From positions 8,047-72,046 of IMG/VR virus record IMGVR_UViG_3300021431_000082: a DNA stretch of 64,000 nucleotides; one strand, given 5' to 3'. Both the position numbers and the translations under genes were made by a program. This stretch comes from a virus (lineage: Duplodnaviria; Heunggongvirae; Uroviricota; Caudoviricetes). Below the pieces are notes generated by a model. The model had not been told where the DNA came from. It did not search any database and saw only the letters and a list, made by a program, of their open reading frames with translations. Position 1 is the first letter of the stretch, and each line of letters starts with the position of its first letter. Positions 1 to 63,524 of this stretch are shown piece by piece.

Positions 1-1385
1 ATTCGACCACGAAAGCTTTAACCACAGCTTCATTTATGCCATTTGGGGCCATTCTATTTTACAACAGTACGTATGCGGTTAATGCAAATGCAGTGATTCC
101 AAATGGTAGGCTGTACGATAGTTTGCTTATTGATCTTAGATATTCATTTAATATCGGAACAACTTTAACGGCTAACAAAGCTGTGTATATAGTTGCTGTT
201 CCACAGAGCGATGGCAAAGCAAAACTTCACGCCACAACCCCGATTTCTCAGACGTTGCCAACGACAGCCGATGGTAATTATTATATCTACCTTGGTATAG
301 CGTACAGCACCTATCAGGTAACGCTACCACGTAACTTCCATCCGGTGTTTATGTATGCGAACAGCGCTGTCAGAGAAGTAAGTCAATATGCTCCATATGC
401 CGGTGATTCAGCGACTGTATCTGGTCATACTGTTGCCAAGGATGTTCCAAGTGATGCTCTCTTCACTGATCACACCTATACAGCCGCAACTGCCGCTCCT
501 GGCGAAATCGCAACTACAGGTGCTAAAGGCTCATCTTCAAATTATGCCAGACAAGATCATACTCATGCGATCAGTCTTGCAACCGGAGATAGTAACGGAC
601 AGGTAAAGATTGCCGGTGAGAATGTCGATGTCAAAGGACTTGGAGCGCTTGCATACAAAGCCAGTCTCAGTAAGTCTGACGTTGGTCTTGGAAATGTGGA
701 TAACAAATCTTCCGCAACGATACGAGGCGAGATTACATCATAGAATGTGACTACCGCACTTGGATATACCCCAGTGAATAAGACTGGAGACACCATGAGC
801 GGCGATCTCGCTCTTAGTGCAGGAAGTGTTACTGCTAATGCCGGGTCTATCGTTTCAGGTGTGAGCACAAGAACAAGTGAGTCACAGGTCCATGCTATTA
901 GTAAATCTGGTGATATCTACCTGTATTCAACCGGTAACTCAAGTGGTAACGGGGCAAGGGGTCTTTATGTACCGGCTCATGGAACCGGCGGCGCTAAGAA
1001 TATTATCGCAGTTGACACAAACAACAACGTCACATTCTCTGGTTCTCTAAGTGGTGCCGCCTCATCCAATGTCTTAAAGTCCGGTGATACGATGTCTGGT
1101 CAGCTTACCCTTAAACCCGATTCAGGCGAAGGTGGTCAGATATGTCTTGATGCTTCAACGGCACAAACAACTCAGGGTGGTATTTATCTTGATCAGGTAA
1201 ACAGCTCATTCAGAATATTTGGTAAACCGTCCGCTGATGGAAGCACCTGTCAAGGATCAGGAACGATTCTCACATACTATCCATATAACTCAGGCAAGAT
1301 GACAATCGGAAGCGCAAGGGTCATGACATCTGCAATGTTCTCTCTCAGCGGAACGACCTTAACTATCACTATCCCAACTAACTAA
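1..1385 (+). CDS. tail fibre protein (5' end outside window; in-frame TAG at 741-743)
   Basis: ORF 36..743 stays open back to base 1 and continues in the same frame through a single TAG into ORF 747..1385. The protein is G/S/T-rich with repeated K-SGDTMSG-L motifs typical of phage tail fibres. Confidence 0.55.
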
Positions 1386-5532: not shown

Positions 5533-6675
5533 ATGACAAAGTTAGAAATGATTGACGCCATCATCGCCTACATGAAAGCTGATGACGGCTATCTGGAGAA
5601 AGCCACGGCGAATTCGAAGTATCTCTACACGAAGCTTCAGAACGCCGGCTATAACAACTACACCAAGTACTGGGATATCATCTATAAGGCGACCGGTCTC
5701 AACTATCAGGGTGGAGCATGGTGCATGGGGAGCATCATGGCTATCATGATTGAGACCCTCGGCGTACATAATGCCCAGACTCTGATGTATCAGAAGGCTG
5801 CAATTAATTGTCAGCTTACTTATGATATTTTCAGAGAACATGGTCAAGTCTATAGCACTCCTGAAGTTGGTGACCTGATCGTCTTCTGGAATGGCAAGCG
5901 CTTCCATCATGTCGAGTATGTCATCAGGATCAGCGGCGATACCTTCTGGACCTGGGGCGGGAATACCTCAAGTGATACAAGTATCGTTGTTGATAATGGT
6001 GGTGCAGCTCGATATGGAAAGCAGTATTCCATTAAAGCATGTAAAGCTAACAAACATAAGTTTCTTAGACCTGACTATGATGCTATCGCAACAGAGAGCT
6101 CAAACACAAAGCTGTGCAGTGGAACGCTCGAAGTCGTAGCCGCACTGAACTGTAGAGCCTCTGCTGTGACCGGTGCGGTGAAGACTACGTACTCTGCCGG
6201 CACCAAGGTCGAAGTCAGCCGCTATACATTCCAGGGTAATGCCTACTGGTTTAAGACTCAGGATGGATGGGTTAGCGGCAACTACTTAAAAGGATGGGTC
6301 AAGGTAGATACGACCGATCCTCACAACCAATGGTGGTACATGACCGGAAGTAAGAAGTCTGAGACCGCCTATGGTATTAATCAGATTCTTGAAATCAATG
6401 GAGCCACCTATCTGTTCAAGCCGAATGGATACGCACTCCAGGATGACTGGTACAAGGAGAACGACACCTGGTACTACGCATATGACAACTGCCAGATCAT
6501 CAGGAGTAACTGGCTCGAATACAAAGATCACTCCTACTATTTCGACTCAACTGGAAAAATGGTGACCGATGCTTTCGTGAAAGCTAAGAACGCCGAAACT
6601 TACTATTACTTAGACAAGGATGGCGTTTGGGATGGTAAAGCCTACCCAGAGCCGGAAGGAAGGATTGTGAAATAA
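5533..6675 (+). CDS. cell wall hydrolase: CHAP peptidase + SH3b + choline-binding-type cell-wall-binding repeats
   Basis: Cys (GGAWCMG) and His (GDLIVFWNGKRFHHVEY) CHAP signature, an SH3b-like middle region, and C-terminal W/Y-rich repeats (YYFDSTGKMVTD, YYYLDKDGVW). Confidence 0.6.
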   Translation: MTKLEMIDAIIAYMKADDGYLEKATANSKYLYTKLQNAGYNNYTKYWDIIYKATGLNYQGGAWCMGSIMAIMIETLGVHNAQTLMYQKAAINCQLTYDIFREHGQVYSTPEVGDLIVFWNGKRFHHVEYVIRISGDTFWTWGGNTSSDTSIVVDNGGAARYGKQYSIKACKANKHKFLRPDYDAIATESSNTKLCSGTLEVVAALNCRASAVTGAVKTTYSAGTKVEVSRYTFQGNAYWFKTQDGWVSGNYLKGWVKVDTTDPHNQWWYMTGSKKSETAYGINQILEINGATYLFKPNGYALQDDWYKENDTWYYAYDNCQIIRSNWLEYKDHSYYFDSTGKMVTDAFVKAKNAETYYYLDKDGVWDGKAYPEPEGRIVK

Positions 6676-7235
6676 TGAACGAGTTGAATCAGTTTTTTCA
6701 GATTAACATGAGGCAGTTCCTGTTGGAATTGTTTATTATCGCCGTTGTATTTTTGGGCTTCGATGACATCTACAACAAACTTAAGACCCGTCTTGGGATT
6801 GTAACAAAGGCGGATCTGGAAAAACAAAAGGAGCATGAAGCCATCAAGCGTCATAGCGAAGAGCTGGATGAGATACGTGCAGGTCTGGATGCGGTCAGGG
6901 AGGAATCTGAAAGAGCTGATTCCGACTTCAAATCCTAGTTCAAGGCCCTTAACGATAAGATCAATGTGCTTTCTAGTATGCTTGTGGAAATGCAGAGAAA
7001 GTCTGATGAATCTGAGAGACACAAACTTCATGACAGGATCGGTCAATCATATCGGTATTATCATGAACGCTTCGTTAACAACGCACCAGGGGGAGTATGG
7101 ACTGCGATGGAGAAGGAAGCTTTTGATGGACTGATTCTGGACTATGAAAACCACGGCGGTAAGAACTCTTTCGTGCATACAGTGTGCCAACCTGAGAGTG
7201 CGCAGTGGACTATAAAGGAGAATTACAATGGTTAA
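6675..7235 (+). CDS. membrane protein with in-frame TAG (6939-6941)
   Basis: ORFs 6675..6938 and 6966..7235 share one frame and are separated only by TAG. There is an N-terminal TM helix followed by a coiled-coil region. Confidence 0.45.
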
Positions 7236-24134: not shown

Positions 24135-24401
24135 TCAGTCATGGTGGTCACCGTCCATTCTTGCACCGCACACTGGGCAGAACTTATACAACATATTCGC
24201 CGCACTTGCTTCTGAGACAAATCCACAAGCAGAGCAAATCCAAAAGCCGTATCCGCTTGGGTCTTCCTTCCAGTGTCCATGCACCACAGGGACAGCATCC
24301 ACGGTCTGCTGTTCGTCAATCAGCTTTCTTGCCACTACTTCTCCATCGTAAAATCGTGTGAGGTCTTTCTTCAGCGCATCTGCGTCAATCAGTCTTCCCA
24401 T
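24135..24401 (-). CDS. IDADAL-family zinc-ribbon protein
   Basis: MGRLIDADALKK...VHGHWK...CSACG...CPVCG, with a GAGGTG RBS. Confidence 0.45.
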   Translation of the reverse strand: MGRLIDADALKKDLTRFYDGEVVARKLIDEQQTVDAVPVVHGHWKEDPSGYGFWICSACGFVSEASAANMLYKFCPVCGARMDGDHHD

Positions 24402-24404
24402 TTT

Positions 24405-24710
24405 CTACACCTCCATACTTGCACCACACCACGGACAGTGCGGGTATAACAAGTAGACTTCTTCAATTTCATCGTATGGGGCTTCTTTCCCACAGCATGA
24501 ACAGATACGCCTGTATTCCTCTCCGTCTTCTGTCACTGCTTTCCACTGTCCATGCACCGCAGGGACAGCATCCACGGTATCCTCGTTATCCACGATAGCA
24601 TCAATGGCATCATTCCACCCTTGACGGTAGAACGCACCGTCACCGAATTTGTTACACAGAATTTCCGGGAACTTACGCTCTGGTAACGCATCAGCGTCAA
24701 TCATTCTCAT
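24405..24710 (-). CDS. IDADAL-family zinc-ribbon protein (terminates with TAG)
   Basis: MRMIDADAL...VHGQWK...CSCCG...CPWCG. It is the only gene seen ending in TAG, and the next paralog follows in frame. Confidence 0.45.
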   Translation of the reverse strand: MRMIDADALPERKFPEILCNKFGDGAFYRQGWNDAIDAIVDNEDTVDAVPAVHGQWKAVTEDGEEYRRICSCCGKEAPYDEIEEVYLLYPHCPWCGASMEV

Positions 24711-37822: not shown

Positions 37823-38063
37823 CTTCGCCTCGTCGGATTGTTTCTCGACTCACATTATTCTTCTTCGGTTTAGTGACCCACTTCTTTGTATAAGCGTGAA
37901 TCATTTCATCCTCATAGATGTCCGGGCACTCCTGCTTGCCGTTTCTTAGCGTCGGCAGTGTTGCGGTATATTCCGAAATCTCGGTAACATCCTCTCTAAA
38001 TCTGTCGGCCTGTTTGCGCTTGCTGTTGCTGTGCGGGAAATGTCTTAAACCGTGAAGTCTCAT
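37794..38063 (-). CDS. hypothetical protein
   Basis: 89-aa ORF. Confidence 0.35.
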   Translation of the reverse strand: MRLHGLRHFPHSNSKRKQADRFREDVTEISEYTATLPTLRNGKQECPDIYEDEMIHAYTKKWVTKPKKNNVSRETIRRGEDDIGDWDAE

Positions 38064-39094
38064 CTGTATTCCTCCAGAAATTTTACAATCTGTTTTGGTG
38101 TCAGCGCCATTATCATGTCCTTTGTTGTAAGGTTAGAATCAAGCGCTTTAAATCCAAAATACGAATACTTATCTTTCTTTATATAATTAGCAATGACTTT
38201 GCGCTGGTTGTTGTACTCTTCCTGGAGTCTTCGTGCTGTAAGAATCATAGCCTCGACTCCATGTTTTAGTTCGGCCAACTGCCACTGATAATAGCGTAGG
38301 AATCTCTCATGCTGTGGAAAGATTTCACACAGGGAGTTAATATCCTCTGGATGACTGGTAATTAACGCCACATATCTCTCAGGTGACAACACATGATTAT
38401 TGACCGACCGATGCATCTCCAGGTATTCAGGCGATTTGATTTTCACTCGGTTGAAGTTGCCATCAACTACGACAAATCCTTCTTTTTCTAATCCATCTTC
38501 ATTAAGATGTTCAACAGCACTCATGCAGTCATCAAGTGTTTTCAGTGGATATCTGGTCGGTTGTTCAACCCCAATATCACGGATTAAATTTTCACCGAAC
38601 ATATTCCCGATTGTACCGATGTGATATATTTTTGTGAATGGATATCTGATGACCACTTGTGTGTCAGGCGACACGAGTTCAAACAAGTATGTATTCATCT
38701 TGCTCATATCATGCCATCTGATCGAACTGTAATTCACAGCATTTACAAATAGGTTGTAAAATGTTTTACCGGTCTGAGTGTCAGCTTCACGAGCATCTAT
38801 TGCGGACATTGTAGAAACCTGCCACATATTAGATTCCCAGTTCCACCAGACTTTGATCAGACTCCCGTCAATCTTATCTTCAACAACAGCTGTATCCCAG
38901 TCAATTTTAGCGGCTTGTGGTTCTTGGATATTGAAGAACTTCTCAAATGGCCAGCAGACAACATCTAATGTATCACGGTTAATGATGATTCCTCGTGCTT
39001 CACATACAATAGGGTCATTGAAGTCGGCACCAATACCATACTTAAACAATGAGAGCCGGCCATCGTTTTTAACTTTGATGTTCTTCTGCTCCAT
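38060..39094 (-). CDS. ATP-dependent RNA ligase (Rnl1-like)
   Basis: Nucleotidyltransferase motif I EDKIDGSLIKV matches the T4 Rnl1-type KxDGSL lysine motif. Size is 344 aa. Confidence 0.55.
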   Translation of the reverse strand: MEQKNIKVKNDGRLSLFKYGIGADFNDPIVCEARGIIINRDTLDVVCWPFEKFFNIQEPQAAKIDWDTAVVEDKIDGSLIKVWWNWESNMWQVSTMSAIDAREADTQTGKTFYNLFVNAVNYSSIRWHDMSKMNTYLFELVSPDTQVVIRYPFTKIYHIGTIGNMFGENLIRDIGVEQPTRYPLKTLDDCMSAVEHLNEDGLEKEGFVVVDGNFNRVKIKSPEYLEMHRSVNNHVLSPERYVALITSHPEDINSLCEIFPQHERFLRYYQWQLAELKHGVEAMILTARRLQEEYNNQRKVIANYIKKDKYSYFGFKALDSNLTTKDMIMALTPKQIVKFLEEYR

Positions 39095-39428
39095 CAGGTC
39101 ACGCCAGTCAGGGTGATCTCTAATAAATCTACAAATTAGCTATGCTTCAGTCATAAATCTCCTTAGAATAATTCGTCTGGCATTTGATCATAGATCGGGT
39201 TGACAACGTATTTGCGTCTTTCCTGGATCTCGTCATATGTCATTACATCACCAGTAGCAAACAGGTAGGCTTCAATCGCTTTTATGATGAGCTCACACTG
39301 GTCTTTATCAAGGTTTAGCTGAACTGTCTTTTGATCCATTCTTCTCTCTTTCTTCTTTGCGACGCTTCATCTCTTTACGAATCTGATTCGCCACATACTT
39401 ATCTGCAATCTTTCTGTTTCTGTTCATT

Positions 39429-39783: not shown

Positions 39784-39975
39784 TCAAAATACCAACACCC
39801 CGGATATTTCTCTCTCGTATATACCACAGTCATCAGATCGTATTGTGTAATAACAAGAATCCTCTTTTATGATATAGCCGAAAGTCCCGATACCATGCTT
39901 AATAATGAAATAGCACCGTTTCCCAATGTTAGTGGGCTGCTTCGTCGCACTCATGTAGCCTCCATATATCACCAA
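39784..39975 (-). CDS. hypothetical small protein
   Basis: 63-aa ORF. Confidence 0.3.
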   Translation of the reverse strand: MVIYGGYMSATKQPTNIGKRCYFIIKHGIGTFGYIIKEDSCYYTIRSDDCGIYEREISGVLVF

Positions 39976-40783
39976 ACATCTGATTTCCCATCATATTATG
40001 ATCTTTATCCATCTTCTGAGGACTCTGCTTCCACTCCACATAGGGAGCCATATGCCAGTTGATCAGGTTACCAACATACAGATCGTTCATTGAAATCTCG
40101 TTGAACCCAGACAGGTAAAGATACGCACCAACATTGTGGTGATTATAGTAGTGAGCCTCACCATCATCAGAAATTGTCTGTGTAATACGCTTCCCAATGT
40201 CATGATAGAGAGCGGCACCTTGAACGAACTTACCGTAGTTATGCTCGAACGCAAACTTCTCAGCGGCATCCTGGTGCCCAATAAGACTCAGTGCATGACG
40301 CTTGCTCTTCTGATCCATGTCATCGGTCGGATACACATATGCTTCCTCATTCGGAACACATGCGATCTGATTCCAACCTTCGTAAAGCCACGGAGCATTG
40401 AAGCCGCCTATCATTCGCATAATTACATCCTTGCCAACCGGGTTCTCACGTTTTGAATCACGCTCGATACAAATATCAAGCGGTGTTGTAAACAGGACCG
40501 CAACTCTCAAAACAGGAAGCTGAGATACCTGCCGAAGGAACTCCATTCTCTTCTTGCGACTCATGTTCGTGGCATCATAAATTGCAGATTCACCACTGCT
40601 TAAAGCTTCGATGATTCTTTTATGAAGCTCCTCAAAAGTCTTGTTGTTATCTTCTTTCTTAGTGGGATCAAGTCCAAGCTCTTCTCTGATAGCATCTGAT
40701 GAGTAGATCTGAAATCCTGTTGTAGCTGCCCAGGTAGATTTACCGGAGCCAGGTAACCCGATGGTCATGTATAAGGTGTTCAA
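39929..40783 (-). CDS. polynucleotide 5'-kinase fused to HD-domain phosphohydrolase (Pnk-HD end-healing enzyme)
   Basis: N-terminal P-loop TIGLPGSGKSTWA as in T4 Pnkp, and C-terminal H...HD...D HD-domain motifs (ALYHDIGK). Confidence 0.55.
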   Translation of the reverse strand: MNTLYMTIGLPGSGKSTWAATTGFQIYSSDAIREELGLDPTKKEDNNKTFEELHKRIIEALSSGESAIYDATNMSRKKRMEFLRQVSQLPVLRVAVLFTTPLDICIERDSKRENPVGKDVIMRMIGGFNAPWLYEGWNQIACVPNEEAYVYPTDDMDQKSKRHALSLIGHQDAAEKFAFEHNYGKFVQGAALYHDIGKRITQTISDDGEAHYYNHHNVGAYLYLSGFNEISMNDLYVGNLINWHMAPYVEWKQSPQKMDKDHNMMGNQMFGDIWRLHECDEAAH

Positions 40784-41952: not shown

Positions 41953-42032
41953 TGCACCCAGCGAGATTTGAACTCGCACGGTTTCCCATAAGATCCTAAG
42001 TCTTACGTGTCTGCCAATTCCACCATGGGCGC
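41953..42032 (-). tRNA. tRNA-Leu (anticodon TAG)
   Basis: Cloverleaf read by hand: acceptor GCGCCCA, anticodon loop CTTAGGA, long variable arm, T-arm GCGAGTTCAAATCTCGC. Confidence 0.6.
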
Positions 42033-42113
42033 TTTTGCATCTTATGGAGAGATGCTGACCCACCTTATTCCTTTTTGAGCGGTGATGAATAAAGTGCAAG
42101 AACGTCCACCGCA

Positions 42114-42184
42114 TCGGGACGGCAGGAGTCGAACCTGCAAACGCCCTTTGCTCAGGGTCTCTTTCCCAATTAAATTACGTCCCG
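42114..42184 (-). tRNA. tRNA (anticodon arm irregular; Cys-GCA or Leu-GAG possible)
   Basis: Acceptor CGGGACG/CGTCCCG and T-arm GCAGGTTCGACTCCTGC are clear. The anticodon stem has mismatches. Confidence 0.4.
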
Positions 42185-42189
42185 CATTG

Positions 42190-42372
42190 TTAGTATTCAT
42201 AGAGAGAAACAACTCTCTCTATTACATTGTCTTCATCGTCAAGCACTTCTTCCTCGTAGCACCCTAATATTTCATCCTGTTCATCTACGCCGCATCTTCC
42301 ATGTGAGTACAACAAGACACGCATATCATCATCGTATTTACTCAGTTCTGAAATTAGCTCTTTGACTTTCAT
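42190..42372 (-). CDS. acidic small protein embedded in tRNA array
   Basis: AAAGGAG RBS then MKVKELISELSKYDDD..., very acidic. The track ORF 42190..42450 is trimmed because its N-terminus overlaps tRNA-Asn. Confidence 0.35.
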   Translation of the reverse strand: MKVKELISELSKYDDDMRVLLYSHGRCGVDEQDEILGCYEEEVLDDEDNVIERVVSLYEY

Positions 42373-42392
42373 GTATTCTCCTTTCATTAGCG

Positions 42393-42467
42393 CGGGAACA
42401 GAAGGACTTGAACCTTCGACGGCGCGGTTAACAGCCGCGTGCTCTACCAACTGAGCTATGCTCCCAT
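42393..42467 (-). tRNA. tRNA-Asn (anticodon GTT)
   Basis: GGGAGCA-TA-GCTCAGTTGGTAGAGC-A-CGCGG-CTGTTAA-CCGCG...GAAGGTTCAAGTCCTTC-TGTTCCC-G. Confidence 0.65.
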
Positions 42468-42643
42468 GGCTGGGTTAAGGTCCCCAGAACCGCACATCCC
42501 GCATATTGGCCTGACTATTTGCTTCCGCCTCAGAGTAAAGGTCTTCGGTGTCCAACTGAGTATCAGGTAGCTACTCTGACAGTTGTCTCAGTTAAGTCAG
42601 CTTTCGTCACTGGGTAAGCGGATAATTTGCTCTCTACCCCGCA

Positions 42644-42733
42644 TCGGGACGGCGAGATTTGAACTCGCATCACAAGTAGGTGACGAACCCCTTGTTGTTT
42701 ACCGTCAAAGCTTTACTTTTAAGCTACGTCCCG
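42644..42733 (-). tRNA. aberrant tRNA-like gene (about 90 nt; expanded anticodon region)
   Basis: Acceptor CGGGACG/CGTCCCG-A is identical to the 42114 tRNA. The D-arm is GCTT..AAGC and the T-arm GCGAGTTCAAATCTCGC. The stem TGACG..CGTCA encloses a 17-nt loop. Confidence 0.3.
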
Positions 42734-42996
42734 TGGTGCACGACAGTAGGATAATCAGTCGTGCCCTGGTTGATTATTTTTAGTCGCCACACAGCATATT
42801 TTATATCCAACGACATCCGGCTTTTCTGAGTACCTAGGATCATGGCAAGCCTTCAGCTCCGGAGAGTGGAGTGGAATCGGTAGCGTTCTATCCACCATAT
42901 GCATCCGATTGTAATTTATCTGCCACCCAAATATGTCATCGACATATCAACGAGGATTTACGCATCAATTTCCAACCCTCAAACAACCACTCTAAA

Positions 42997-43125
42997 GCGT
43001 ACGGGTGGGAGTCGAACCCACTATGACCTTTCCCATTGCGTATTGGTACTCAGTTTGTTTCTTAGGAGCGTCCGCTTCGGATGATTGCATTACGCACTGC
43101 AACTTCTCTATAGCTCCACCGTACG
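42997..43125 (-). tRNA. atypical long tRNA-like element (about 129 nt)
   Basis: Perfect T-arm GTGGGTTCGACTCCCAC plus acceptor 3' CCGTACG. The complementary CGTACGG-TG-GAGC 5' end lies 120 nt upstream, with an unexplained insert between them. Confidence 0.25.
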
Positions 43126-43280
43126 ATGAAGGAATCTTTGACTGTTTAACGACACCCTTACCATGATGTCGGGTCTTGTCCTACTGTCGGGTCACGCCCG
43201 TAGGTTAGCTGAGAGCCGTCATCTGACTCAGCACAATCATCTCCGATCCTGCCCGGAGAACCCCGTCATACCAATCCTCT

Positions 43281-43310
43281 ACCAACGAGTCGGATTCGAA
43301 CCGACACTTG
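43281..43310 (-). other. orphan tRNA 3' fragment (T-arm + acceptor half)
   Basis: GTCGGTTCGAATCCGAC-TCGTTGG with no matching 5' half nearby. Confidence 0.3.
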
Positions 43311-43397
43311 CGCGAACGGATGGATTTGAACCATCGGAACGATTGCTCGTTCGTCGATTTTCAAGACCGATGCAATAAGCCACTCTGCCACGTTCGC
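43311..43397 (-). tRNA. tRNA-Ser (anticodon TGA), type II
   Basis: GCGAACG acceptor, D-arm GCAGAGTGGCTTATTGC, loop CTTGAAA, long variable arm ACGAGCAATCGT, discriminator G. Confidence 0.6.
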
Positions 43398-43400
43398 AAA

Positions 43401-43471
43401 TTGCAGGCTGTGGAGTTGAACCACACTATCCAGATAATGAGTCTGGCAAGTAACCGCTACTTTAGCCTGCG
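43401..43471 (-). tRNA. tRNA-Met (anticodon CAT; C1-A72 mismatch, initiator-like)
   Basis: Anticodon stem CCAGA/TCTGG with loop CTCATTA, and T-arm TGTGGTTCAACTCCACA. Confidence 0.55.
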
Positions 43472-43674
43472 ATATTCAAGCGGCTTTTTAATTGCGAACT
43501 TGGGGAAGCCACATAAACCCCGGCTCATTTAATTTCTCCTGATGCCGTAGCACCGGATATGCCGCAGTGACATAACTGCGGATTTGCAGGATTTTTTACA
43601 GCCTGTTTCATCCTGCCCAGCAAATACAGGTATCCACCGTCTCTTAGCCAACCTTACTCGTCAGTAAGGATCAA

Positions 43675-43747
43675 AGCTCCCGAAGAGATTTGAACTCTTG
43701 CTTCAGCATTACAAGTGCCGCACTCTATCCAGCTGAGCTACAGGAGC
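43675..43747 (-). tRNA. tRNA-Thr (anticodon TGT)
   Basis: GCTCCTG-TA-GCTCAGCTGGATAGAGT-G-CGGCA-CTTGTAA-TGCTG...AAGAGTTCAAATCTCTT-CGGGAGC-T. Confidence 0.6.
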
Positions 43748-43750
43748 TTA

Positions 43751-43837
43751 CGTGGAGTGAGGGCTTCGAACCCCCGAATCGGTCGCCCGATTATCAGATT
43801 TAGAGTCTGACGCAATCAACCGCTCTGCCAACTCCAC
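43751..43837 (-). tRNA. amber suppressor tRNA (anticodon CTA), Ser-type type II architecture
   Basis: GTGGAGT-TG-GCAGAGCGGTTGATTGC-G-TCAGA-CTCTAAA-TCTGA, long variable arm AATCGGGCGACCGATT, T-arm GGGGGTTCGAAGCCCTC-ACTCCAC, discriminator G. The D-arm closely resembles the adjacent tRNA-Ser. Confidence 0.6.
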
Positions 43838-43865
43838 TGGGTGGCCACTCGTTACACCACCCTAA

Positions 43866-43938
43866 TCGGAGTGACAGGTCACGATCCTGCGGCATCCAGC
43901 TCCCAAAACTGGCGCTCTACCAACTGAGCTACACCCCG
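43866..43938 (-). tRNA. tRNA-Pro (anticodon TGG)
   Basis: CGGGGTG-TA-GCTCAGTTGGTAGAGC-G-CCAGT-TTTGGGA-GCTGG. The T-loop is unusual (ATCGTGA). Confidence 0.5.
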
Positions 43939-44227
43939 AAATTTGGAAAGGAGGTTCGTCCTCGAAGTTCTTACTTCTTAACAGCATGTTTCATGCTAAG
44001 GACTACCAAATAAGAGTTACACGATAGTCGCAAAAAAATCAGCGCCCAAAAAAACGACCATCGATAAAATCATTTTTACCGGCTGTCACGGTCACATGTT
44101 AGTGACTTGAATTCCACATCAAGGTCAATTGCTAATGAGATTTCTCATAAAGTCTATTGCTTCTGGGTTTATCTATGATTTGATTATGGAATGATAAGTT
44201 TATGATGATTTCATTAACAACCTTGAG

Positions 44228-44299
44228 CTGGGGTTGGCAGTTTCGAACTGCCGATACAGGATTCAAAGTCCTGTGCCTTAACCACTTGGCGAAACCCCA
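44228..44299 (-). tRNA. tRNA-Gln (anticodon TTG)
   Basis: TGGGGTT acceptor, anticodon stem CAGGA/TCCTG with loop CTTTGAA. Confidence 0.55.
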
Positions 44300-44316
44300 T
44301 TGGGTATCGCACCTTC

Positions 44317-44389
44317 ACCTCACCATTGGACTTGAACCACATCTGCGGACTACCCATTCCGCCGCTCTACCGTATTGAGCTAGGCGAGG
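44317..44389 (-). tRNA. atypical tRNA-like gene with apparent 8-nt anticodon loop
   Basis: Acceptor CCTCGCC/GGTGAGG, D-arm GCTC..GAGC. Stem GCGGA/TCCGC encloses ATGGGTAG, and the T-stem is weak. Confidence 0.3.
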
Positions 44390-44401
44390 ATTCAGTGCGA
44401 A

Positions 44402-44475
44402 TGGATCTTCATGGACTCGAACCATGGCACTTCCGGTTATGAGCCGGAGGCTCTCACCAACTGAGCTAAAGATCC
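44402..44475 (-). tRNA. tRNA-Met/Ile2 (anticodon CAT)
   Basis: GGATCTT-TA-GCTCAGTTGGTGAGAGC-C-TCCGG-CTCATAA-CCGGA...CATGGTTCGAGTCCATG-AAGATCC-A. Confidence 0.6.
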
Positions 44476-44690
44476 AGGCTGAATAGTGACCGGATATTCA
44501 GTTGCTCCTAAAGGTTTCAATTATATTTTTTGTTAATTAATATTCCACTGCCTACCTGCCTCGCAGGTTACCAAAGGTCATACGCAACCAAACCTGAACT
44601 GTTAGTCGAGGATTTTAAAAAGCTTTATTCTTTTTGGGAAGAACGGTCCCTCTTTAATCCTTCAACTTTACTCAAATTAAACTTTGAGCT

Positions 44691-44731
44691 TTTAGCTTTA
44701 AGCCTTTAGCTTTAAGCCTTAACCTTTAAGC
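44691..44731. repeat. tandem 14-bp repeat (TTTAGCTTTAAGCC x2.6)
   Basis: A direct tandem array sits in the 580-bp non-coding gap between protein genes and the tRNA array. Confidence 0.6.
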
Positions 44732-44801
44732 AAACGATGTTAATCAACATCACAATCTCCAATAGCCGATTTACAGTCGGTTTTGAAAATATTCTTGTTT
44801 T

Positions 44802-44847
44802 ATATATGTATTAAGAATATTTGCATATATGTATTAAGAATATTTGC
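44802..44847. repeat. 23-bp perfect direct repeat x2 (ATATATGTATTAAGAATATTTGC)
   Basis: Two exact head-to-tail copies are flanked by the palindrome GATGTTAATCAACATC at 44737-44752. The arrangement is iteron-like. Confidence 0.6.
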
Positions 44848-44879
44848 TATTAAGGTGACGGTTTATTCATTTGTTTTAC

Positions 44880-45050
44880 TTCGACCCAAACCGTCTAATG
44901 ACCGAAGGGTTGCAGTTTATGATTTCCGGTAGGTAGTGGATGCTGCGGGTGGGGATCTGCACCCCACATGACATCGCCCTCAGTAGTCACGAAGCGACAG
45001 CCTCCACTCGTGCCAGTAGCGTTTACCTGTTCCGCCACCGCAGCGTTGCT
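44880..45050 (-). ncRNA. GC-rich structured element (candidate ncRNA or processing site)
   Basis: Local GC content is far above the surrounding sequence, with hairpins such as GTGGGGATCTGCACCCCAC and no ORF. Confidence 0.2.
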
Positions 45051-45055
45051 TTTGA

Positions 45056-45291: not shown

Positions 45292-45930
45292 TTAATATTC
45301 GATCTCAATCGTCGTCAGTGCATTGCTGACACTGAGAGCAGAGTCGATCTTGGCCTCGAATGCGGAGATCTCTTCGGACAGTGCCTGGATCTTCTCCTCA
45401 ATCTTCAGCGGGTCAATCAGTTCGATGGACTTCATCTCAATGAAATCCTCTCTCGCCTTCTGAATTTCAGCCGCCGCAGTCTTTACTTCCTTGGTTCCAA
45501 ACATGGAGACCAGGTAGTTATCAGCGGAATTCTGGAGTTCAGCCGACTCGTTGTAGCTAAGCTTCCTACGTGCTGCATCAAACTGTTTGGTGAGCGCCGA
45601 AAGAAGCATGGACTTCAGTTCCATTCCGTGCTGCTTCAGATCAATAGCCTCAGCAACGGTGAACTGTTCGCCATTTACCGTAACCATCGTCTTGGCGTTT
45701 GAGAGCGTGATCGCCTTCTTCAGTGCAGTACGTCTTCTGATGAGATCGGACACCTTATCGAAAGATGCCTGAATCTCTTTCTTAACATCTTCCACATCAA
45801 CGCCGTTGATCTTCTTGGCGGAGTGCGACTTCGTAGTTACAAACACACTGTACAGCGCATCATTAACTCTGCCATCCATCCTCTTCAGATCACTCAGTGC
45901 CTCATGAACAGTCATAGTCTCCTTAATCAT
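45292..45930 (-). CDS. hypothetical coiled-coil protein
   Basis: 212-aa ORF preceded by a conserved promoter element. Confidence 0.45.
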   Translation of the reverse strand: MIKETMTVHEALSDLKRMDGRVNDALYSVFVTTKSHSAKKINGVDVEDVKKEIQASFDKVSDLIRRRTALKKAITLSNAKTMVTVNGEQFTVAEAIDLKQHGMELKSMLLSALTKQFDAARRKLSYNESAELQNSADNYLVSMFGTKEVKTAAAEIQKAREDFIEMKSIELIDPLKIEEKIQALSEEISAFEAKIDSALSVSNALTTIEIEY

Positions 45931-63228: not shown

Positions 63229-63524
63229 CTCTTTTCTACCCAGTACTTATACAGCTTGCAATTCGAGCGAAGATATCTATCAACAACTTCAAGATCGTCC
63301 TTATGCGCGTATCTGATAATCAGATCGACAATCTTCTTTGCGTTCTTCATCGGAAGATCTACATAGTAGACCTTGTTTTTCTTGTCGTATTTCCTCTTCC
63401 CCGCATCAGCTGCAATTGCTTCAAGATCAACTTCCATTGACCACGCATTATCCCAACTATCTCCAAACTGAATTACGTTTTCCATATCATCTCCTCGGGG
63501 TATACCCATATCTTCTGCTCTCAT
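63219..63524 (-). CDS. hypothetical protein
   Basis: 101-aa ORF. Confidence 0.35.
   Translation of the reverse strand: MRAEDMGIPRGDDMENVIQFGDSWDNAWSMEVDLEAIAADAGKRKYDKKNKVYYVDLPMKNAKKIVDLIIRYAHKDDLEVVDRYLRSNCKLYKYWVEKRWK

What the first reader, a model, noticed from the sequence alone, without database searches (positions are those of the whole stretch)
41953..44475. Large tRNA array containing structurally aberrant tRNA-like elements
About 11 recognisable tRNAs are packed on the minus strand: Leu-TAG, Asn, Ser-TGA, Met x2 (one with a C1-A72 initiator-like mismatch), Thr, Sup-CUA, Pro, Gln, plus one with an irregular anticodon stem. Several elements are not standard cloverleaves:
- a 90-nt element with a normal acceptor, D- and T-arm but a 17-nt loop in the anticodon arm (42644-42733)
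- a 129-nt element whose perfect acceptor halves are separated by ~120 nt (42997-43125)
- an orphan T-arm/acceptor 3' half (43281-43310)
- a tRNA with an apparent 8-nt anticodon loop, ATGGGTAG (44317-44389)
- an acidic 60-aa ORF embedded in the array (42190-42372)

Aberrant or expanded-loop tRNAs next to a suppressor could indicate further decoding tricks (frameshift suppression, intron-containing or decoy tRNAs). Alternatively they may be decaying duplicates.
Basis: seen in the sequence. Interest (0 to 1): 0.6.

Follow-up and report, generated by a model that had tools for sequence, protein, structure and literature searches.

The report
Phage tRNA array with non-standard members
A gut or rumen phage carries a cluster of ten working-type tRNA genes plus five tRNA-derived oddities; one (a tRNA with an eight-base anticodon loop) and part of another are conserved and clearly selected, while the rest look like by-products of frequent gene swapping inside the cluster.

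Summary
ARAGORN and Rfam place 12 tRNA-type genes on the minus strand at 41953-44476, and none elsewhere in the 64 kb.

Comparison with about 8 syntenic arrays from related uncultured phages sorts the aberrant elements into three kinds.

1. **8-nt-loop tRNA (44317-44389).** It is conserved in three lineages. All 8 stem substitutions form 4 compensatory pairs, and the loop AUGGGUAG never varies. It is functional, not decaying.
2. **"Orphan T-arm".** It is the first hairpin of a conserved, covarying ~180-nt RNA after tRNA-Ser (43126-43309). This RNA matches no Rfam family.
3. **The 90-nt element A, element B and the 129-nt element C.** These are lineage-specific. A and B derive from a second tRNA-Pro gene that is intact in relatives. 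They keep the acceptor and T arms but have lost the anticodon arm. The 60-aa ORF is an ordinary small phage gene.

No intron, tmRNA, split tRNA or +1 frameshift target was found. The amber suppressor, however, appears to be used: the nearby RNA ligase gene has an in-frame TAG where relatives have Ser.

Best reading: a recombination-prone tRNA operon serving translation and counter-defence, with a few selected non-standard tRNA-shaped RNAs of unknown role.

The parts
44401..44476 (-). tRNA with anticodon CAU, first gene of the array. Probably an Ile2-type (AUA-reading) or elongator Met tRNA.
   Evidence: ARAGORN and Rfam at 69.9 bits. It occupies the slot held by tRNA-Ile(UAU) in L032, L035 and L037, and it resembles the CAU tRNA of L040.
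44317..44389 (-). Conserved non-canonical tRNA with the 8-nt anticodon loop AUGGGUAG, a 3-nt variable loop and two conserved mismatches at the base of the T stem.
   Evidence: ARAGORN anticodon gggt and Rfam at 36.1 bits. Orthologues are present in L032, L035 and L036. All stem substitutions are compensatory (4 pairs) and the loop is invariant.
44227..44299 (-). tRNA-Gln(UUG).
   Evidence: The allele differs at 18 of 73 positions from that of the near-identical phage L032.
43940..44226 (-). Conserved non-coding spacer between the Gln and Pro tRNAs.
   Evidence: 70-98% identical in seven relatives. No gene is called there. In L035, L037 and L038 an HNH/NUMOD4 endonuclease gene follows it.
43865..43939 (-). 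tRNA-Pro(UGG).
43751..43837 (-). Amber suppressor tRNA(CUA) of serine type. It has a long variable arm, discriminator G73 and a D arm like that of tRNA-Ser(UGA).
   Evidence: It is present in every related array, with an invariant loop CUCUAAA and strongly covarying stems.
43674..43748 (-). tRNA-Thr(UGU).
43473..43673 (-). Spacer between the Thr and Met tRNAs, conserved in some relatives.
   Evidence: 86-87% identical in L050 and L051, and replaced in L032.
43400..43472 (-). tRNA-Met(CAU) with initiator-like traits: a C1xA72 mismatch, A11:U24 and A73.
   Evidence: ARAGORN only; Rfam reports nothing here. Relatives keep a 1:72 mismatch of varying identity, read from the sequences.
43310..43397 (-). 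tRNA-Ser(UGA).
43126..43309 (-). Conserved structured RNA of about 180 nt after tRNA-Ser.
   Evidence: 79-100% identical in 7 relatives, and recognisable in L035 by nhmmer at E = 3e-29. Ten pairs change on both sides, 97% of cells are paired, and 0 of 500 shuffles reach the observed value. No Rfam family matches, and no 5' acceptor partner exists.
42997..43125 (-). 129-nt tRNA-derived element C. It has a 7-bp acceptor-like stem and a T arm, with a three-way junction and a roughly 40-nt unstructured stretch in place of the D and anticodon arms.
   Evidence: Sequence and fold. It is identical in L032 and absent from all other relatives; L040, L049 and L051 have tRNA-Met there. No Rfam hit.
42734..42996 (-). 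Spacer found only in the window phage and in L032.
42644..42733 (-). 90-nt element A, a derivative of a second tRNA-Pro gene. The acceptor stem (C1-G72, A73), D stem and T arm are intact, the anticodon arm is replaced by about 36 nt, and the D loop lacks GG.
   Evidence: Rfam at 45 bits and fold z = -3.1. L040 and L047 have an intact tRNA-Pro(UGG) at this site, followed by the same spacer at 92% identity. Its T arm is identical to that of tRNA-Leu(UAG).
42466..42643 (-). Spacer after element A. It is homologous to the spacer after the intact second tRNA-Pro of L040.
   Evidence: 92% identity over 170 nt.
42392..42465 (-). tRNA-Asn(GUU).
   Evidence: It lies inside the roughly 570-nt block that L032 lacks.
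42190..42372 (-). 60-aa acidic ORF, an ordinary conserved small phage gene.
   Evidence: Called as a gene in 4 assemblies. It has 115 homologue clusters, nearly all exactly 60 aa. In other phages it lies among small early genes with no tRNA called in the loci examined. PHROG hits are weak.
42114..42184 (-). 71-nt element B, new here: a second degenerate copy on the same Pro-like scaffold. The acceptor and T arms are intact, the D stem is degenerate, and the anticodon-like loop has G33.
   Evidence: Rfam at 37.6 bits with permissive filters. It shares 5' CGGGACGTA and 3' GCCGTCCCGATGCGG with A. ARAGORN reports it only at a low threshold.
41953..42032 (-). tRNA-Leu(UAG), last gene of the array.
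38060..39154 (-). Context: T4 Rnl1-type RNA ligase gene with an in-frame TAG (39142-39140) at codon 5. It depends on the array's suppressor tRNA.
   Evidence: Pfam RNA_lig_T4_1. The N-terminus MTEA*LICRF... aligns with the 365-366-aa ligases of L032, L037, L040 and L052, all of which have Ser at that codon.
39929..40783 (-). Context: polynucleotide kinase (AAA_33) with a weak C-terminal HD-domain match. It is the partner of the ligase in an RNA repair pair.
   Evidence: Pfam and PHROG.

Best explanation
**What it is.** This is the tRNA operon of a large Firmicutes-type phage from gut or rumen metagenomes. It sits in the replication, nucleotide and RNA-repair gene block and reads on the minus strand. 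It contains ten cloverleaf tRNAs that can decode:
- an AUA/AUG-reading CAU tRNA
- Gln
- Pro
- a serine-type amber suppressor
- Thr
- an initiator-like Met
- Ser
- Asn
- Leu
- the 8-nt-loop tRNA

It also contains tRNA-derived elements of different origin.

**Shown**
1. The 8-nt-loop tRNA is a selected gene. Its stems change only by compensatory pairs, and its loop is as invariant as the loops of the normal tRNAs.
2. The 'orphan T arm' is the first hairpin of a conserved, covarying ~180-nt RNA that follows tRNA-Ser.
3. Elements A and B are two copies of a second tRNA-Pro gene that is intact in relatives. Each has lost its anticodon arm to a different replacement. C is a remodelled tRNA-like element found in only two near-identical phages.
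4. Between phages that are otherwise 97-100% identical here, individual tRNA genes are exchanged for alleles 25-45% different. The array is therefore a recombination hot spot. Relatives carry HNH homing endonuclease genes inside it.
5. The 60-aa ORF is an ordinary small phage gene.

**Inferred**
- The array is transcribed as one or a few precursors. It is cut by host RNase P and RNase Z at every element that keeps an acceptor and T-arm helix, including A, B and C. These three are then released as non-decoding RNAs, and their excision also frees the ORF's mRNA.
- The decoding tRNAs supply A-ending codons and read amber as Ser.
- Together with the adjacent kinase and Rnl1 ligase, they keep translation going when host defences cleave tRNAs.
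- The conserved non-standard members are most likely nuclease-insensitive or decoy tRNA bodies rather than a programmed frameshifting device. These members are the 8-nt-loop tRNA here and the 4-6-nt-loop tRNA-likes in relatives.
- A, B and C are most likely recent recombination by-products.
For: **Array and context**
- tRNA calls.
- Flanking genes are PolIII alpha, a ThyX-like protein, a polynucleotide kinase (weak HD match), Rnl1, SSB and NrdD.

**8-nt-loop tRNA**
- Present in the window, L032, L035 and L036.
- Eleven substitutions separate the window from L035. Eight lie in stems and form 4 compensatory pairs, and none lies in the loop.
- The loops of the canonical tRNAs are likewise conserved while their stems vary.

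**Post-Ser RNA**
- Alignment of 8 arrays gives 97% of cells paired and 10 pairs changed on both sides. None of 500 shuffles reaches this, and slid controls give 1-2 such pairs.
- nhmmer finds it only in this clade.

**Elements A and B**
- They share scaffold ends.
- L040 and L047 have an intact tRNA-Pro(UGG) at the site, followed by a 92%-identical downstream spacer.
- L032 has a single hybrid element with a third, unrelated middle. It lacks the ~570 nt that carry tRNA-Asn and the ORF.

**Mosaicism, window versus L032**

| Element | Substitutions |
|---|---|
| Gln | 18/73 |
| Pro | 34/75 |
| Suppressor | 28/87 |
| Met | 21/73 |
| 8-nt-loop tRNA | 2/73 |
| Ser, post-Ser RNA, C, Leu | 0 |

**Homing endonucleases.** HNH/NUMOD4 genes lie inside the arrays of L035, L037 and L038.

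**Non-decoding tRNA-likes in relatives.** They have 4-6-nt loops, 97.5% of cells paired, 4 pairs changed on both sides and a variable loop sequence.

**Anticodon-loop variation among alleles.** C33 appears in Pro and Thr tRNAs of relatives.

**Suppressor in use.** The Rnl1 gene has an in-frame TAG at a conserved Ser codon.

**Published precedents**
- Phage tRNAs with altered anticodon loops evade anticodon nucleases (PMC10264068).
- Phage tRNAs neutralise PARIS and retron effectors (PMC11464382, PMC11555353).
- The homing endonuclease SegB amplifies the T-even tRNA locus against Septu (PMC13096335).
Against: - No expression or processing data exist, and the host and its defence systems are unknown.
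- The decoy or nuclease-evasion role of the 8-nt-loop tRNA is inferred from context only.
- Its loop is exactly one inserted G away from a Thr(GGU)-type loop (U33-GGU-A37). That is the classical frameshift-suppressor design, and its invariance would also fit a decoding role.
- It was found in only 3 of about 7 distinct lineages and rests on 3 distinct sequences.
- A, B and the L032 hybrid keep all 12 acceptor and T-stem pairs intact despite losing the anticodon arm. That hints at selection rather than neutral debris, although a recent origin explains it equally well.
- The single-sequence fold energies of the post-Ser RNA and of C are not better than shuffled sequence (z = +0.5 and -1.35).
- Most covariation in the post-Ser RNA comes from two divergent sequences, L035 and L037.
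Confidence: 0.55

Rival explanations
1. The 8-nt-loop tRNA is a natural +1 frameshift suppressor. On this reading it is a Thr(GGU)-type tRNA with an extra G 5' of the anticodon, giving the 4-base anticodon GGGU. It would read ACC-C as one amino acid, and the phage would use it for programmed quadruplet decoding alongside its amber suppressor.
For: - The loop AUGGGUAG equals U33-GGU-A37 plus one G. This is the design of sufD (C inserted between positions 33 and 34) and is related to sufJ, a tRNA-Thr(GGU) with an 8-nt loop that reads ACC-N (PMC4238358).
- The loop is invariant while the stems covary.
- Its discriminator is U73, like the phage's tRNA-Thr(UGU).
- The same array demonstrably recodes TAG.
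Against: - The 64-kb window has no ORF pair that needs a +1 shift at ACCC. The one candidate, at 63501, sits just inside an ORF that has its own ATG start.
- Comparison with relatives that lack this tRNA revealed no split genes.
- There are 26 in-frame ACC-C sites, including sites in the NrdD, lysin and integrase genes.
- ACC-C is no more depleted than GCC-C or TCC-C.
- The T stem has two conserved mismatches at the end bound by EF-Tu, and the variable loop is only 3 nt. Both are atypical for an efficient elongator tRNA.
- Positions 32 and 38 are A and G, which is unusual.
- Natural 8-nt-loop tRNAs known so far are not known to frameshift (PMC5009743).
- Only about 40% of the roughly 152-kb genome could be examined.
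Confidence: 0.15
2. A, B and C are retained, useful RNAs rather than by-products. The intact acceptor and T-arm scaffold would serve one of two purposes. It could act as a processing and stability handle for a variable payload hairpin (a natural tRNA-scaffolded small RNA). Alternatively it could act as punctuation that releases the ORF's mRNA and the neighbouring tRNAs.
For: - All 7 acceptor and 5 T-stem pairs are intact in A, B and the L032 hybrid, although their T-arm sequences differ (GCGAG/CTCGC, GCAGG/CCTGC, TCAGG/CCTGA).
- A and the L032 hybrid both fold into the same layout, with folds better than shuffled sequence (z = -3.1 and -3.4). The layout is an acceptor stem, a D arm, a short stretch, a 9-10-bp hairpin and a T arm.
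- B lies directly between the ORF and tRNA-Leu.
Against: - None of the three middles is conserved in any diverged relative.
- A's T arm is identical to that of tRNA-Leu(UAG). That fits gene conversion rather than compensatory evolution.
- A's D loop lacks the GG needed for the tRNA elbow.
- C is invariant in the only two phages that have it, so selection cannot be assessed.
- No target for any payload is known.
Confidence: 0.15
3. All the aberrant elements are neutral, decaying tRNA pseudogenes with no function.
For: - A, B and C are lineage-specific and lack a usable anticodon arm.
- Phage tRNA arrays commonly contain pseudo-tRNAs (general knowledge).
Against: - In the 8-nt-loop tRNA every stem substitution is compensated and the loop is invariant across about 15% divergence.
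- The post-Ser RNA, including the 'orphan' T arm, is more conserved than the neighbouring tRNAs and it covaries.
Confidence: 0.08
4. The odd elements are intron-containing, split or permuted tRNAs, or a tmRNA, that mature into normal adaptors.
For: - ARAGORN in intron mode calls A as tRNA-Pro(GGG) with a 10-nt intron.
- At a relaxed threshold it calls C as tRNA-Gly with a 43-nt intron.
- An RNA ligase and a kinase are encoded nearby.
Against: - No group I intron, tmRNA or other family hit appears even at E <= 10.
- No bulge-helix-bulge motif lies around the proposed intron (read from the sequence).
- Pfam and PHROG scans of about 25 window proteins gave no splicing-endonuclease match; the other ORFs were not scanned.
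- No 5' acceptor strand complementary to the orphan 3' half exists in any of 7 arrays.
- The proposed 'introns' are not conserved in relatives.
Confidence: 0.03

Closest known systems
Phage tRNA clusters that counter tRNA-targeting host defences (mycobacteriophage tRNAs with altered anticodon loops, PMC10264068; T5 tRNA against PARIS, PMC11464382; tRNAs against retron effectors, PMC11555353; T4 Pnkp and Rnl1 repair of PrrC-cleaved tRNA, from general knowledge)
   Same: - A dense array of mostly U34 (A-ending-codon) tRNAs in a large phage.
- A polynucleotide kinase and an Rnl1-type ligase lie a few kb away.
- Alleles differ at anticodon-loop positions 32 and 33 and in their stems.
- Homing endonuclease genes lie in related arrays.
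   Different: - No host, nuclease or cleavage is known here.
- The conserved odd members go beyond point changes. They have an 8-nt loop here, and 4-6-nt loops in relatives that cannot decode at all.
Classical +1 frameshift-suppressor tRNAs sufD, sufJ and SufB2 (PMC4238358; bioRxiv 10.1101/2020.12.31.424971)
   Same: - An 8-nt anticodon loop.
- The loop reads as a Thr(GGU) loop plus one inserted base next to the anticodon. This complements ACC-C, one of the codon sets that sufJ reads.
   Different: - Those are laboratory-selected mutants of cellular tRNAs. This one is a wild-type gene conserved across phage lineages.
- It has further deviations: a 3-nt variable loop, mismatches at the base of the T stem, and A32/G38.
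- No site that needs it was found.
Natural tRNAs with non-standard anticodon-loop size: the yeast mitochondrial tRNA and 'tRNAs in a phage that has many relatives' noted by Atkins et al. 2016 (PMC5009743). From memory, the phage in question is the Cluster M mycobacteriophages of Pope et al. 2014.
   Same: - Wild-type tRNA genes with enlarged anticodon loops, including genes in phage tRNA arrays.
- No frameshifting role has been demonstrated.
   Different: - A different phage group (Firmicutes-type, gut or rumen) with unrelated sequence.
- Here conservation with compensatory change is documented.
- Here it coexists with short-loop tRNA-likes and a serine-type amber suppressor.
T4 tRNA region with stable non-tRNA RNAs (species 1 and 2) and the homing endonuclease SegB (from general knowledge; SegB-driven amplification in PMC13096335)
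   Same: - A tRNA cluster interspersed with conserved non-tRNA small RNAs that have tRNA-like ends.
- A homing endonuclease promotes rearrangement of the cluster.
   Different: - There is no sequence or Rfam relationship.
- The window itself has no endonuclease gene in the array; only relatives do.
- The post-Ser RNA carries its T-arm mimic at the 5' end, not the 3' end.
Suppressor tRNAs of stop-codon-recoded gut phages (bioRxiv 10.1101/2021.08.26.457843)
   Same: - A phage-encoded tRNA(CUA) from animal gut metagenomes.
- TAG is rare as a stop codon (8 of 106 crude genes).
- There is an in-frame TAG in a real gene.
   Different: - There is no genome-wide recoding in the 64 kb examined.
- Only one well-supported in-frame TAG was found.
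- The suppressor looks serine-type.

Membership tests
Canonical tRNA (Rfam RF00005) | Covariance-model score at or above the gathering threshold of 29 bits. | tested here: met
   Met for three elements: the 8-nt-loop tRNA at 36.1 bits, A at 45 bits, and B at 37.6 bits (B only with permissive filters). Not met for C (no tRNA hit; tRNA-Sec 14.2 bits at E = 4.4) or for the orphan T arm (13.6 bits, 5'-truncated).
Canonical tRNA (Rfam RF00005) | A 7-nt anticodon loop with U33 and a purine at position 37 on a 5-bp stem. | tested here: not met
   None of the four elements meets it. The 8-nt-loop tRNA has 8 nt. A has about 36 nt in place of the 17-nt arm. B has G33 and a mismatched stem. C has no recognisable anticodon arm.
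Canonical tRNA (Rfam RF00005) | Elbow nucleotides: GG in the D loop and a TTCRA-type T loop. | tested here: met
   Met in the 8-nt-loop tRNA (D loop AAUACGGUA, T loop UUCAAGU) and in B. Not met in A, whose D loop AAAAGUA has no GG.
+1 frameshift-suppressor tRNA (sufD/sufJ type) | An 8-nt anticodon loop created by one extra base in or next to the anticodon. | tested here: met
   The loop AUGGGUAG becomes the Thr(GGU)-type AUGGUAG when one G is removed. It is identical in 3 lineages and several independent assemblies. The parent tRNA is inferred, not known.
+1 frameshift-suppressor tRNA (sufD/sufJ type) | Genes that require a +1 shift at the cognate quadruplet (ACC-C). | tested here: not met
   No convincing site exists in 64 kb. 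No genes are split relative to phages lacking this tRNA. ACC-C is not specifically avoided. About 60% of the genome was not available.
+1 frameshift-suppressor tRNA (sufD/sufJ type) | Aminoacylation and quadruplet reading on the ribosome. | not testable with these tools
   This needs charging assays and frameshift reporters.
Intron-containing bacterial or phage tRNA | A group I (or group II) intron in the anticodon loop, or a bulge-helix-bulge motif together with a splicing endonuclease. | tested here: not met
   No intron family appears at E <= 10. The 10-nt 'intron' from ARAGORN's intron mode has no helix flanked by bulges. The Pfam/PHROG scans of about 25 window proteins gave no endonuclease match; the other ORFs were not scanned.
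tmRNA (standard or permuted) | Detection by ARAGORN or Rfam, a G3:U70 pair and a tag reading frame. | tested here: not met
   ARAGORN calls no tmRNA. Rfam gives only a 17-nt T-arm match at 15 bits. C has U3-A70.
Split or permuted tRNA | A 5' acceptor strand complementary to the orphan 3' strand, covarying across relatives. | tested here: not met
   No consistent complement of CGTTGGT, CAATGGT or CATTGGT occurs in 7 arrays. There is also no covariation with the acceptor of the adjacent tRNA-Ser.
tRNA pseudogene or recombination remnant (A, B, C) | An intact gene or a different element at the orthologous site in relatives, and loss of an essential arm. | tested here: met
   An intact tRNA-Pro(UGG) sits at A's site in L040 and L047. 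L032 has a hybrid with a different middle. At C's site L040, L049 and L051 have tRNA-Met.
tRNA pseudogene or recombination remnant (A, B, C) | Random decay of the remaining stems. | tested here: not met
   All acceptor and T-stem pairs are intact in A, B, C and the L032 hybrid. This fits either a recent origin or retained processing function.
Anticodon-nuclease-evading phage tRNAs (PMC10264068) | Anticodon-loop differences from the host tRNA that block cleavage. | not testable with these tools
   The host is unknown. Indirect support comes from C33 and from position-32 variation among alleles of the Pro and Thr tRNAs in relatives, and from the adjacent RNA repair genes.

The most novel reading that the evidence does not exclude
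A wild-type phage gene encodes a natural, selected quadruplet-reading tRNA: a Thr(GGU)-type tRNA with an extra G, giving the anticodon GGGU for ACC-C. The phage would use it together with its serine-type amber suppressor to gate expression of a gene lying outside the stretch examined. This would be the first programmed use of a frameshift-suppressor tRNA in nature. A related reading that is also not excluded: this clade's tRNA-shaped RNAs with 8-, 6-, 5- and 4-nt loops form a family of non-decoding tRNA mimics that disarm host tRNA-targeting immunity.
Probability: 0.13. Interest if true: 0.85.

Novelty: new variant of a known kind. Interest (0 to 1): 0.5.

Why it matters
Phage tRNA arrays are now seen as counter-defence as well as codon supply. 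This array adds several testable points.

1. **A conserved 8-nt-loop tRNA.** It is a wild-type tRNA with a classical frameshift-suppressor loop, maintained by compensatory evolution. It could show whether nature uses such tRNAs for decoding, for evading nucleases, or as decoys.
2. **A new conserved RNA.** The ~180-nt structured RNA with a T-arm mimic is embedded in the array and matches no Rfam family.
3. **Gene-by-gene exchange.** tRNA alleles are swapped between phages that are nearly identical in this region. tRNA scaffolds survive the loss of their anticodon arm. Both observations show how such arrays evolve.
4. **Coupling of decoding and repair.** An RNA-repair ligase apparently depends on the array's own amber suppressor.

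None of this changes the basic picture of what a phage tRNA cluster is.

Tried and rejected
- **Known phages.** Near and distant BLAST of the array against 50,697 phage records found only one 49-nt tRNA-Asn match and nothing for C or the post-Ser RNA.
- **Pattern scans for the 8-nt-loop arm.** IMG/VR and 185,579 reference genomes gave no match. Orthologues came only from ENA/Logan contigs reached through the upstream 212-aa protein.
- **Post-Ser RNA in reference genomes.** No match.
- **Two extra contig look-ups.** P0004 and P0007 ended before the array.
- **Intron, tmRNA, ribozyme or other Rfam family.** Nothing appeared at E <= 10 except a sub-threshold RAGATH-27 hit upstream.
- **Split or permuted tRNA for the orphan T arm.** No partner strand was found. 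There is no covariation with the tRNA-Ser acceptor.
- **Orphan T arm as the phage attP core.** Rejected for four reasons:
  - it lies 30 kb from the integrase gene;
  - it is embedded in a 180-nt conserved block whose other hairpins also covary;
  - its implied acceptor begins CC;
  - this conclusion is by inference only.
- **Programmed +1 frameshift at ACCC.** A scan of all six frames, a comparison with relatives and codon-context statistics were all negative.
- **Genome-wide TAG recoding.** Not seen in the window.
- **Simple promoter and terminator scan.** At background level.
- **The ORF as an array-specific factor.** Rejected: its homologues lie among small early genes with no tRNA called in the loci examined. 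One of them (L055) has what looks, by eye only, like a degenerate tRNA-like stretch upstream.

Full report
**1. Observation**

ARAGORN finds ten tRNA genes in the window, all on the minus strand between 41953 and 44476. In order of transcription they are:

| Gene | Coordinates |
|---|---|
| CAU tRNA | 44401-44476 |
| tRNA with a 4-base 'anticodon' gggt | 44317-44389 |
| Gln-UUG | 44227-44299 |
| Pro-UGG | 43865-43939 |
| CUA suppressor with a long variable arm | 43751-43837 |
| Thr-UGU | 43674-43748 |
| second CAU tRNA | 43400-43472 |
| Ser-UGA | 43310-43397 |
| Asn-GUU | 42392-42465 |
| Leu-UAG | 41953-42032 |

Rfam's tRNA model confirms nine of these. It adds the 90-nt element at 42644-42733 (45 bits), which has 36 nt where the model expects the 17-nt anticodon arm. 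I call these two elements A and B, the 129-nt element C, and the orphan T arm D.

A simple T-arm motif occurs 11 times on this strand inside the array and twice on that strand elsewhere. Contigs from several independent assemblies are 99.9-100% identical over the array. The oddities, including the GGG run in the 8-nt loop, are therefore not assembly errors.

**2. Context**

The window is part of a roughly 152-kb uncultured phage. Its recognisable genes include:
- PolIII alpha, DnaB and primase
- NrdD and SSB
- a tyrosine integrase
- a CHAP/choline-binding lysin
- a polynucleotide kinase (weak HD-domain match) at 39929-40783
- a T4 Rnl1-type RNA ligase at 38060-39154

No isolated phage resembles it at the DNA level.

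The 212-aa protein just upstream of the array has graded homologues. Their contigs, together with DNA pattern scans, gave about eight distinct syntenic arrays: L032 (98% neighbour), L035/L036 (72%), L037/L052 (64%), L038, L040 (62%), L049, L050 and L051.

**3. The 8-nt-loop tRNA (44317-44389)**

Orthologues sit in the same slot, between the Ile/CAU tRNA and Gln, in L032, L035 and L036. Eleven positions differ between the window and L035. Eight are in stems and make four compensatory pairs (6:67, 7:66, 27:43, 52:62). Three are in the D loop, T loop or a junction. None is in the anticodon loop AUGGGUAG.

The same pattern is seen for every ordinary tRNA of these arrays: the loop is fixed and the stems are free to covary. 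This is therefore a selected gene, not a decaying copy.

Its minimum-energy fold is a cloverleaf, and the elbow nucleotides are present. It also has a 3-nt variable loop and two conserved mismatches (U·U and G·A) at the base of the T stem.

Removing one G from the loop gives AUGGUAG. That is a Thr(GGU)-type loop with U33, U36 and A37. The loop therefore has the design of sufD-type suppressors (a base inserted between positions 33 and 34). It targets ACC-C, one of the codons read by sufJ, which is a tRNA-Thr(GGU) with an 8-nt loop (PMC4238358).

I tested for use of that capacity. All four tests were negative:
- No ORF pair in the 64 kb needs a +1 shift at ACCC. The one formal candidate, at 63501, lies just inside an ORF that has its own ATG start.
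- No gene is split relative to phages that lack this tRNA.
- There are 26 in-frame ACC-C sites, including sites in NrdD, the lysin and the integrase.
- ACC-C is no more depleted than GCC-C or TCC-C.

The tRNA is also absent from L037, L038, L040 and L049-L051. A programmed frameshifting role is not excluded, because about 60% of the genome is unseen. It is, however, unsupported.

**4. The 'orphan' T arm**

The hairpin at 43289-43305 opens a 184-nt stretch after tRNA-Ser (43126-43309). That stretch is 79-100% identical in seven relatives and recognisable in L035. Its 3' half is almost invariant among phages whose tRNAs differ by 10-25%.

The consensus structure has eight helices. On eight sequences, 97% of cells are paired and ten pairs change on both sides. 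None of 500 column shuffles reaches that, and slid controls give one or two such pairs. The T-arm mimic itself changes by three compensatory pairs.

Several alternatives were checked:
- No Rfam family matches.
- The stretch has no coding potential.
- No complementary 5' acceptor strand occurs anywhere in seven arrays.
- It does not covary with the acceptor of tRNA-Ser.

It is therefore not a split or permuted tRNA. I regard it as a new candidate structured RNA, possibly built from old tRNA remnants. In L035 its second hairpin still carries a T-loop consensus. The single-sequence fold energy is unremarkable, so the case rests on conservation and covariation. Most of the covariation comes from L035 and L037.

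**5. Elements A, B and C**

*Shared scaffold.* A and B share the 5' end CGGGACGTA and the 3' end GCCGTCCCGATGCGG. This is a tRNA-Pro-like acceptor with C1-G72 and A73.

*Origin.* In L040 and L047 an intact tRNA-Pro(UGG) (64.8 bits in L040) occupies A's position. It is followed by a spacer 92% identical to the one after A.

*The L032 hybrid.* L032 is 97-100% identical to the window in the flanks. It has a single 85-nt hybrid with A's 5' part, a B-like T arm and a third, unrelated middle. It lacks the ~570 nt that carry A's 3' part, tRNA-Asn, the ORF and B's 5' part.

*Signs of gene conversion and decay.*
- A's T arm is identical to that of tRNA-Leu(UAG).
- A's D loop lacks GG.
- B has G33 and a degenerate D stem.

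*Element C.* C and the 263-nt spacer after it exist only in the window phage and L032, where C is identical. In L040, L049 and L051 a tRNA-Met sits there. C pairs a 7-bp acceptor-like stem with a consensus T arm. By my estimate the chance of such a complement within 150 nt is about 1%. The rest of C is a three-way junction plus about 40 unstructured nt, and the fold is not significant.

*Assessment.* No relative conserves any of the three middles. These elements therefore look like recent products of recombination. One feature argues for caution: all twelve scaffold pairs are intact in A, B and the hybrid. They should still be substrates for RNase P and RNase Z, and they may act as processing punctuation.

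*Introns.* ARAGORN's intron mode proposes a 10-nt intron in A and a 43-nt intron in C. No intron family, bulge-helix-bulge motif or conservation backs either proposal.

**6. A recombination hot spot**

Substitutions between the window and L032 are very unevenly distributed:

| Element | Substitutions |
|---|---|
| first tRNA | 30/76 |
| Gln | 18/73 |
| Pro | 34/75 |
| suppressor | 28/87 |
| Met | 21/73 |
| 8-nt-loop tRNA | 2/73 |
| Gln-Pro spacer | 5/287 |
| Ser, post-Ser RNA, C, Leu | 0 |

The window's Gln allele is closer to those of L040 and L049, which are 62% relatives, than to that of L032. Whole tRNA genes are thus exchanged like cassettes.

L035, L037 and L038 carry HNH/NUMOD4 homing endonuclease genes inside the array. 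This recalls SegB in the T-even tRNA region, which drives amplification of that locus under defence pressure (PMC13096335).

**7. The ORF**

The 60-aa ORF has 115 homologue clusters, almost all exactly 60 aa. In other phages it lies among small early genes with no tRNA called in the loci examined. It is a normal small phage gene that travelled into the array together with tRNA-Asn.

**8. Related observations bearing on mechanism**

*Short-loop tRNA-likes.* After tRNA-Leu(UAG), relatives carry a tRNA-like gene with a 4-, 5- or 6-nt 'anticodon' loop. Its stems covary (97.5% of cells paired, four pairs changed on both sides), its loop sequence varies, and it has a 1:72 mismatch. Such an RNA cannot decode.

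*Unusual canonical tRNAs.*
- Alleles of Pro and Thr tRNAs in relatives have C33.
- More distant relatives have class I tRNAs with long variable arms.

*The suppressor is in use.* The suppressor is serine-type, with G73, a long variable arm and a Ser-like D arm. The RNA ligase gene of the window begins ATG ACT GAA GCA TAG CTA..., while four relatives have Ser at that codon and 365-366-aa products. Full-length ligase therefore seems to depend on the array's own suppressor.

*Interpretation.* These facts, the adjacent kinase and ligase, and published work on phage tRNAs and tRNA-cleaving defences all point the same way (PMC10264068, PMC11464382, PMC11555353). They make a translation-plus-counter-defence role the best-supported reading. 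In that reading the conserved non-standard tRNA bodies act as nuclease-insensitive variants or decoys. This step is inference.

**9. Comparison with known kinds, and verdict**

Known kinds:
- Phage tRNA arrays, pseudo-tRNAs within them, suppressor tRNAs in gut phages, and even phage tRNAs with non-standard loop sizes are all known (PMC5009743; bioRxiv 10.1101/2021.08.26.457843).
- The 8-nt-loop tRNA matches the structural definition of a frameshift-suppressor tRNA. It fails the test for a target, so I do not file it as one.
- A, B and C meet the criteria for tRNA remnants, except that their scaffolds show no decay.
- The post-Ser RNA matches no described family.

Verdict: a real and partly interesting feature, best classed as a new variant of a known kind.

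Noticed in passing
window 39140-39154 (minus strand), within the RNA ligase gene 38060-39154: The Rnl1-type RNA ligase ORF appears to start at the ATG at 39154 and has an in-frame TAG at codon 5 (39142-39140). The ligases of L032, L037, L040 and L052 have Ser there and are 365-366 aa long. Gene callers report a truncated 344-aa product in four assemblies. The array's CUA tRNA is serine-type, so amber is probably read as Ser, and the ligase would depend on the array.
   Followed up: partly
window 36-1385 (+), 6675-7235 (+), 24135-24710 (-): Three pairs of same-frame ORFs are separated by a single TAG. The pairs are 36-743 with 747-1385 (tail-fibre-like), 6675-6938 with 6966-7235, and two phrog_22543 paralogues. 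These are possible amber read-through fusions. TAG is the rarest stop codon (8 of 106 crude genes).
   Followed up: partly
window 44856-44940 (-), within the non-coding 44477-45055: There is a sub-threshold RAGATH-27 match (51 bits against a gathering score of 76). It lies in a ~580-nt conserved non-coding region between the 212-aa gene and the array. In distant relatives (L042, L044-L046) a full-score RAGATH-27 (88 bits) lies directly after the homologous gene and before tRNAs, so the window hit is probably a real, divergent member.
   Followed up: partly
window 41953-44476 compared with L032 10680-13530: Individual tRNA genes (first tRNA, Gln, Pro, suppressor, Thr, Met) differ by 25-45% between two phages whose spacers and other tRNAs are 97-100% identical. 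This amounts to cassette-like exchange of tRNA alleles.
   Followed up: yes
L035 13310-13380, L037 8972-9040, L052 4749-4817, L040 15071-15141, L051 8705-8774: A conserved tRNA-like gene follows tRNA-Leu(UAG) in relatives. Its anticodon loop has only 4-6 nt and a variable sequence, its stems covary, and it has a 1:72 mismatch. It cannot decode. The window lacks it.
   Followed up: partly
L032 11802-11875, L035 12275-12348, L040 13370-13443 (Pro); L037 6682-6754, L050 866-939 (Thr): Otherwise normal Pro(UGG) and Thr(UGU) tRNAs in relatives carry C33 instead of the near-universal U33. Position 32 also varies among alleles.
   Followed up: no
L044 7407-7501, L042 7723-7808, L001 2137-2224, L004 1325-1412, L007 1494-1580: More distant relatives have class I tRNAs (Gln, Ile-UAU, Thr, Lys, Arg) of 86-95 nt, with a long hairpin in the variable region. 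L045 has a 74-nt Gln at the same site as L044's 95-nt version.
   Followed up: partly
L035 11687-12265, L037 5779-6474, L038 11904-13133: HNH/NUMOD4 homing endonuclease genes are inserted in the related arrays, between the Gln-Pro spacer and tRNA-Pro. The window has none there.
   Followed up: no
window 43400-43472 (-): This CAU tRNA has a C1xA72 mismatch, A11:U24 and A73, all initiator-like. It lacks the three G-C pairs in the anticodon stem. Relatives keep a 1:72 mismatch of varying identity (A·A, U·U). Rfam gives no hit here even at E <= 10.
   Followed up: partly
window 43940-44226, 43473-43673, 42466-42643 (-): Three further gene-free spacers of 180-290 nt inside the array are conserved at 70-98% in subsets of relatives. 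They could hold more small RNAs or regulatory sites. A simple promoter and terminator scan was at background level.
   Followed up: no
L037 5280-5395 and L038 11432-11545: Where the 8-nt-loop tRNA sits in other phages, these two have a 116-nt element. By inspection it has a long-range closing stem (CCGCACT/AGTGCGG) and an internal T-arm-like hairpin, a layout reminiscent of element C.
   Followed up: no
window 45292-45930 (-): This 212-aa protein matches phrog_1491, which is annotated 'tail fiber protein'; the annotation is doubtful here. It has more than 1,500 homologues. In both close and distant relatives it is followed by a gene-free stretch holding RAGATH-27 and/or tRNAs.
   Followed up: partly
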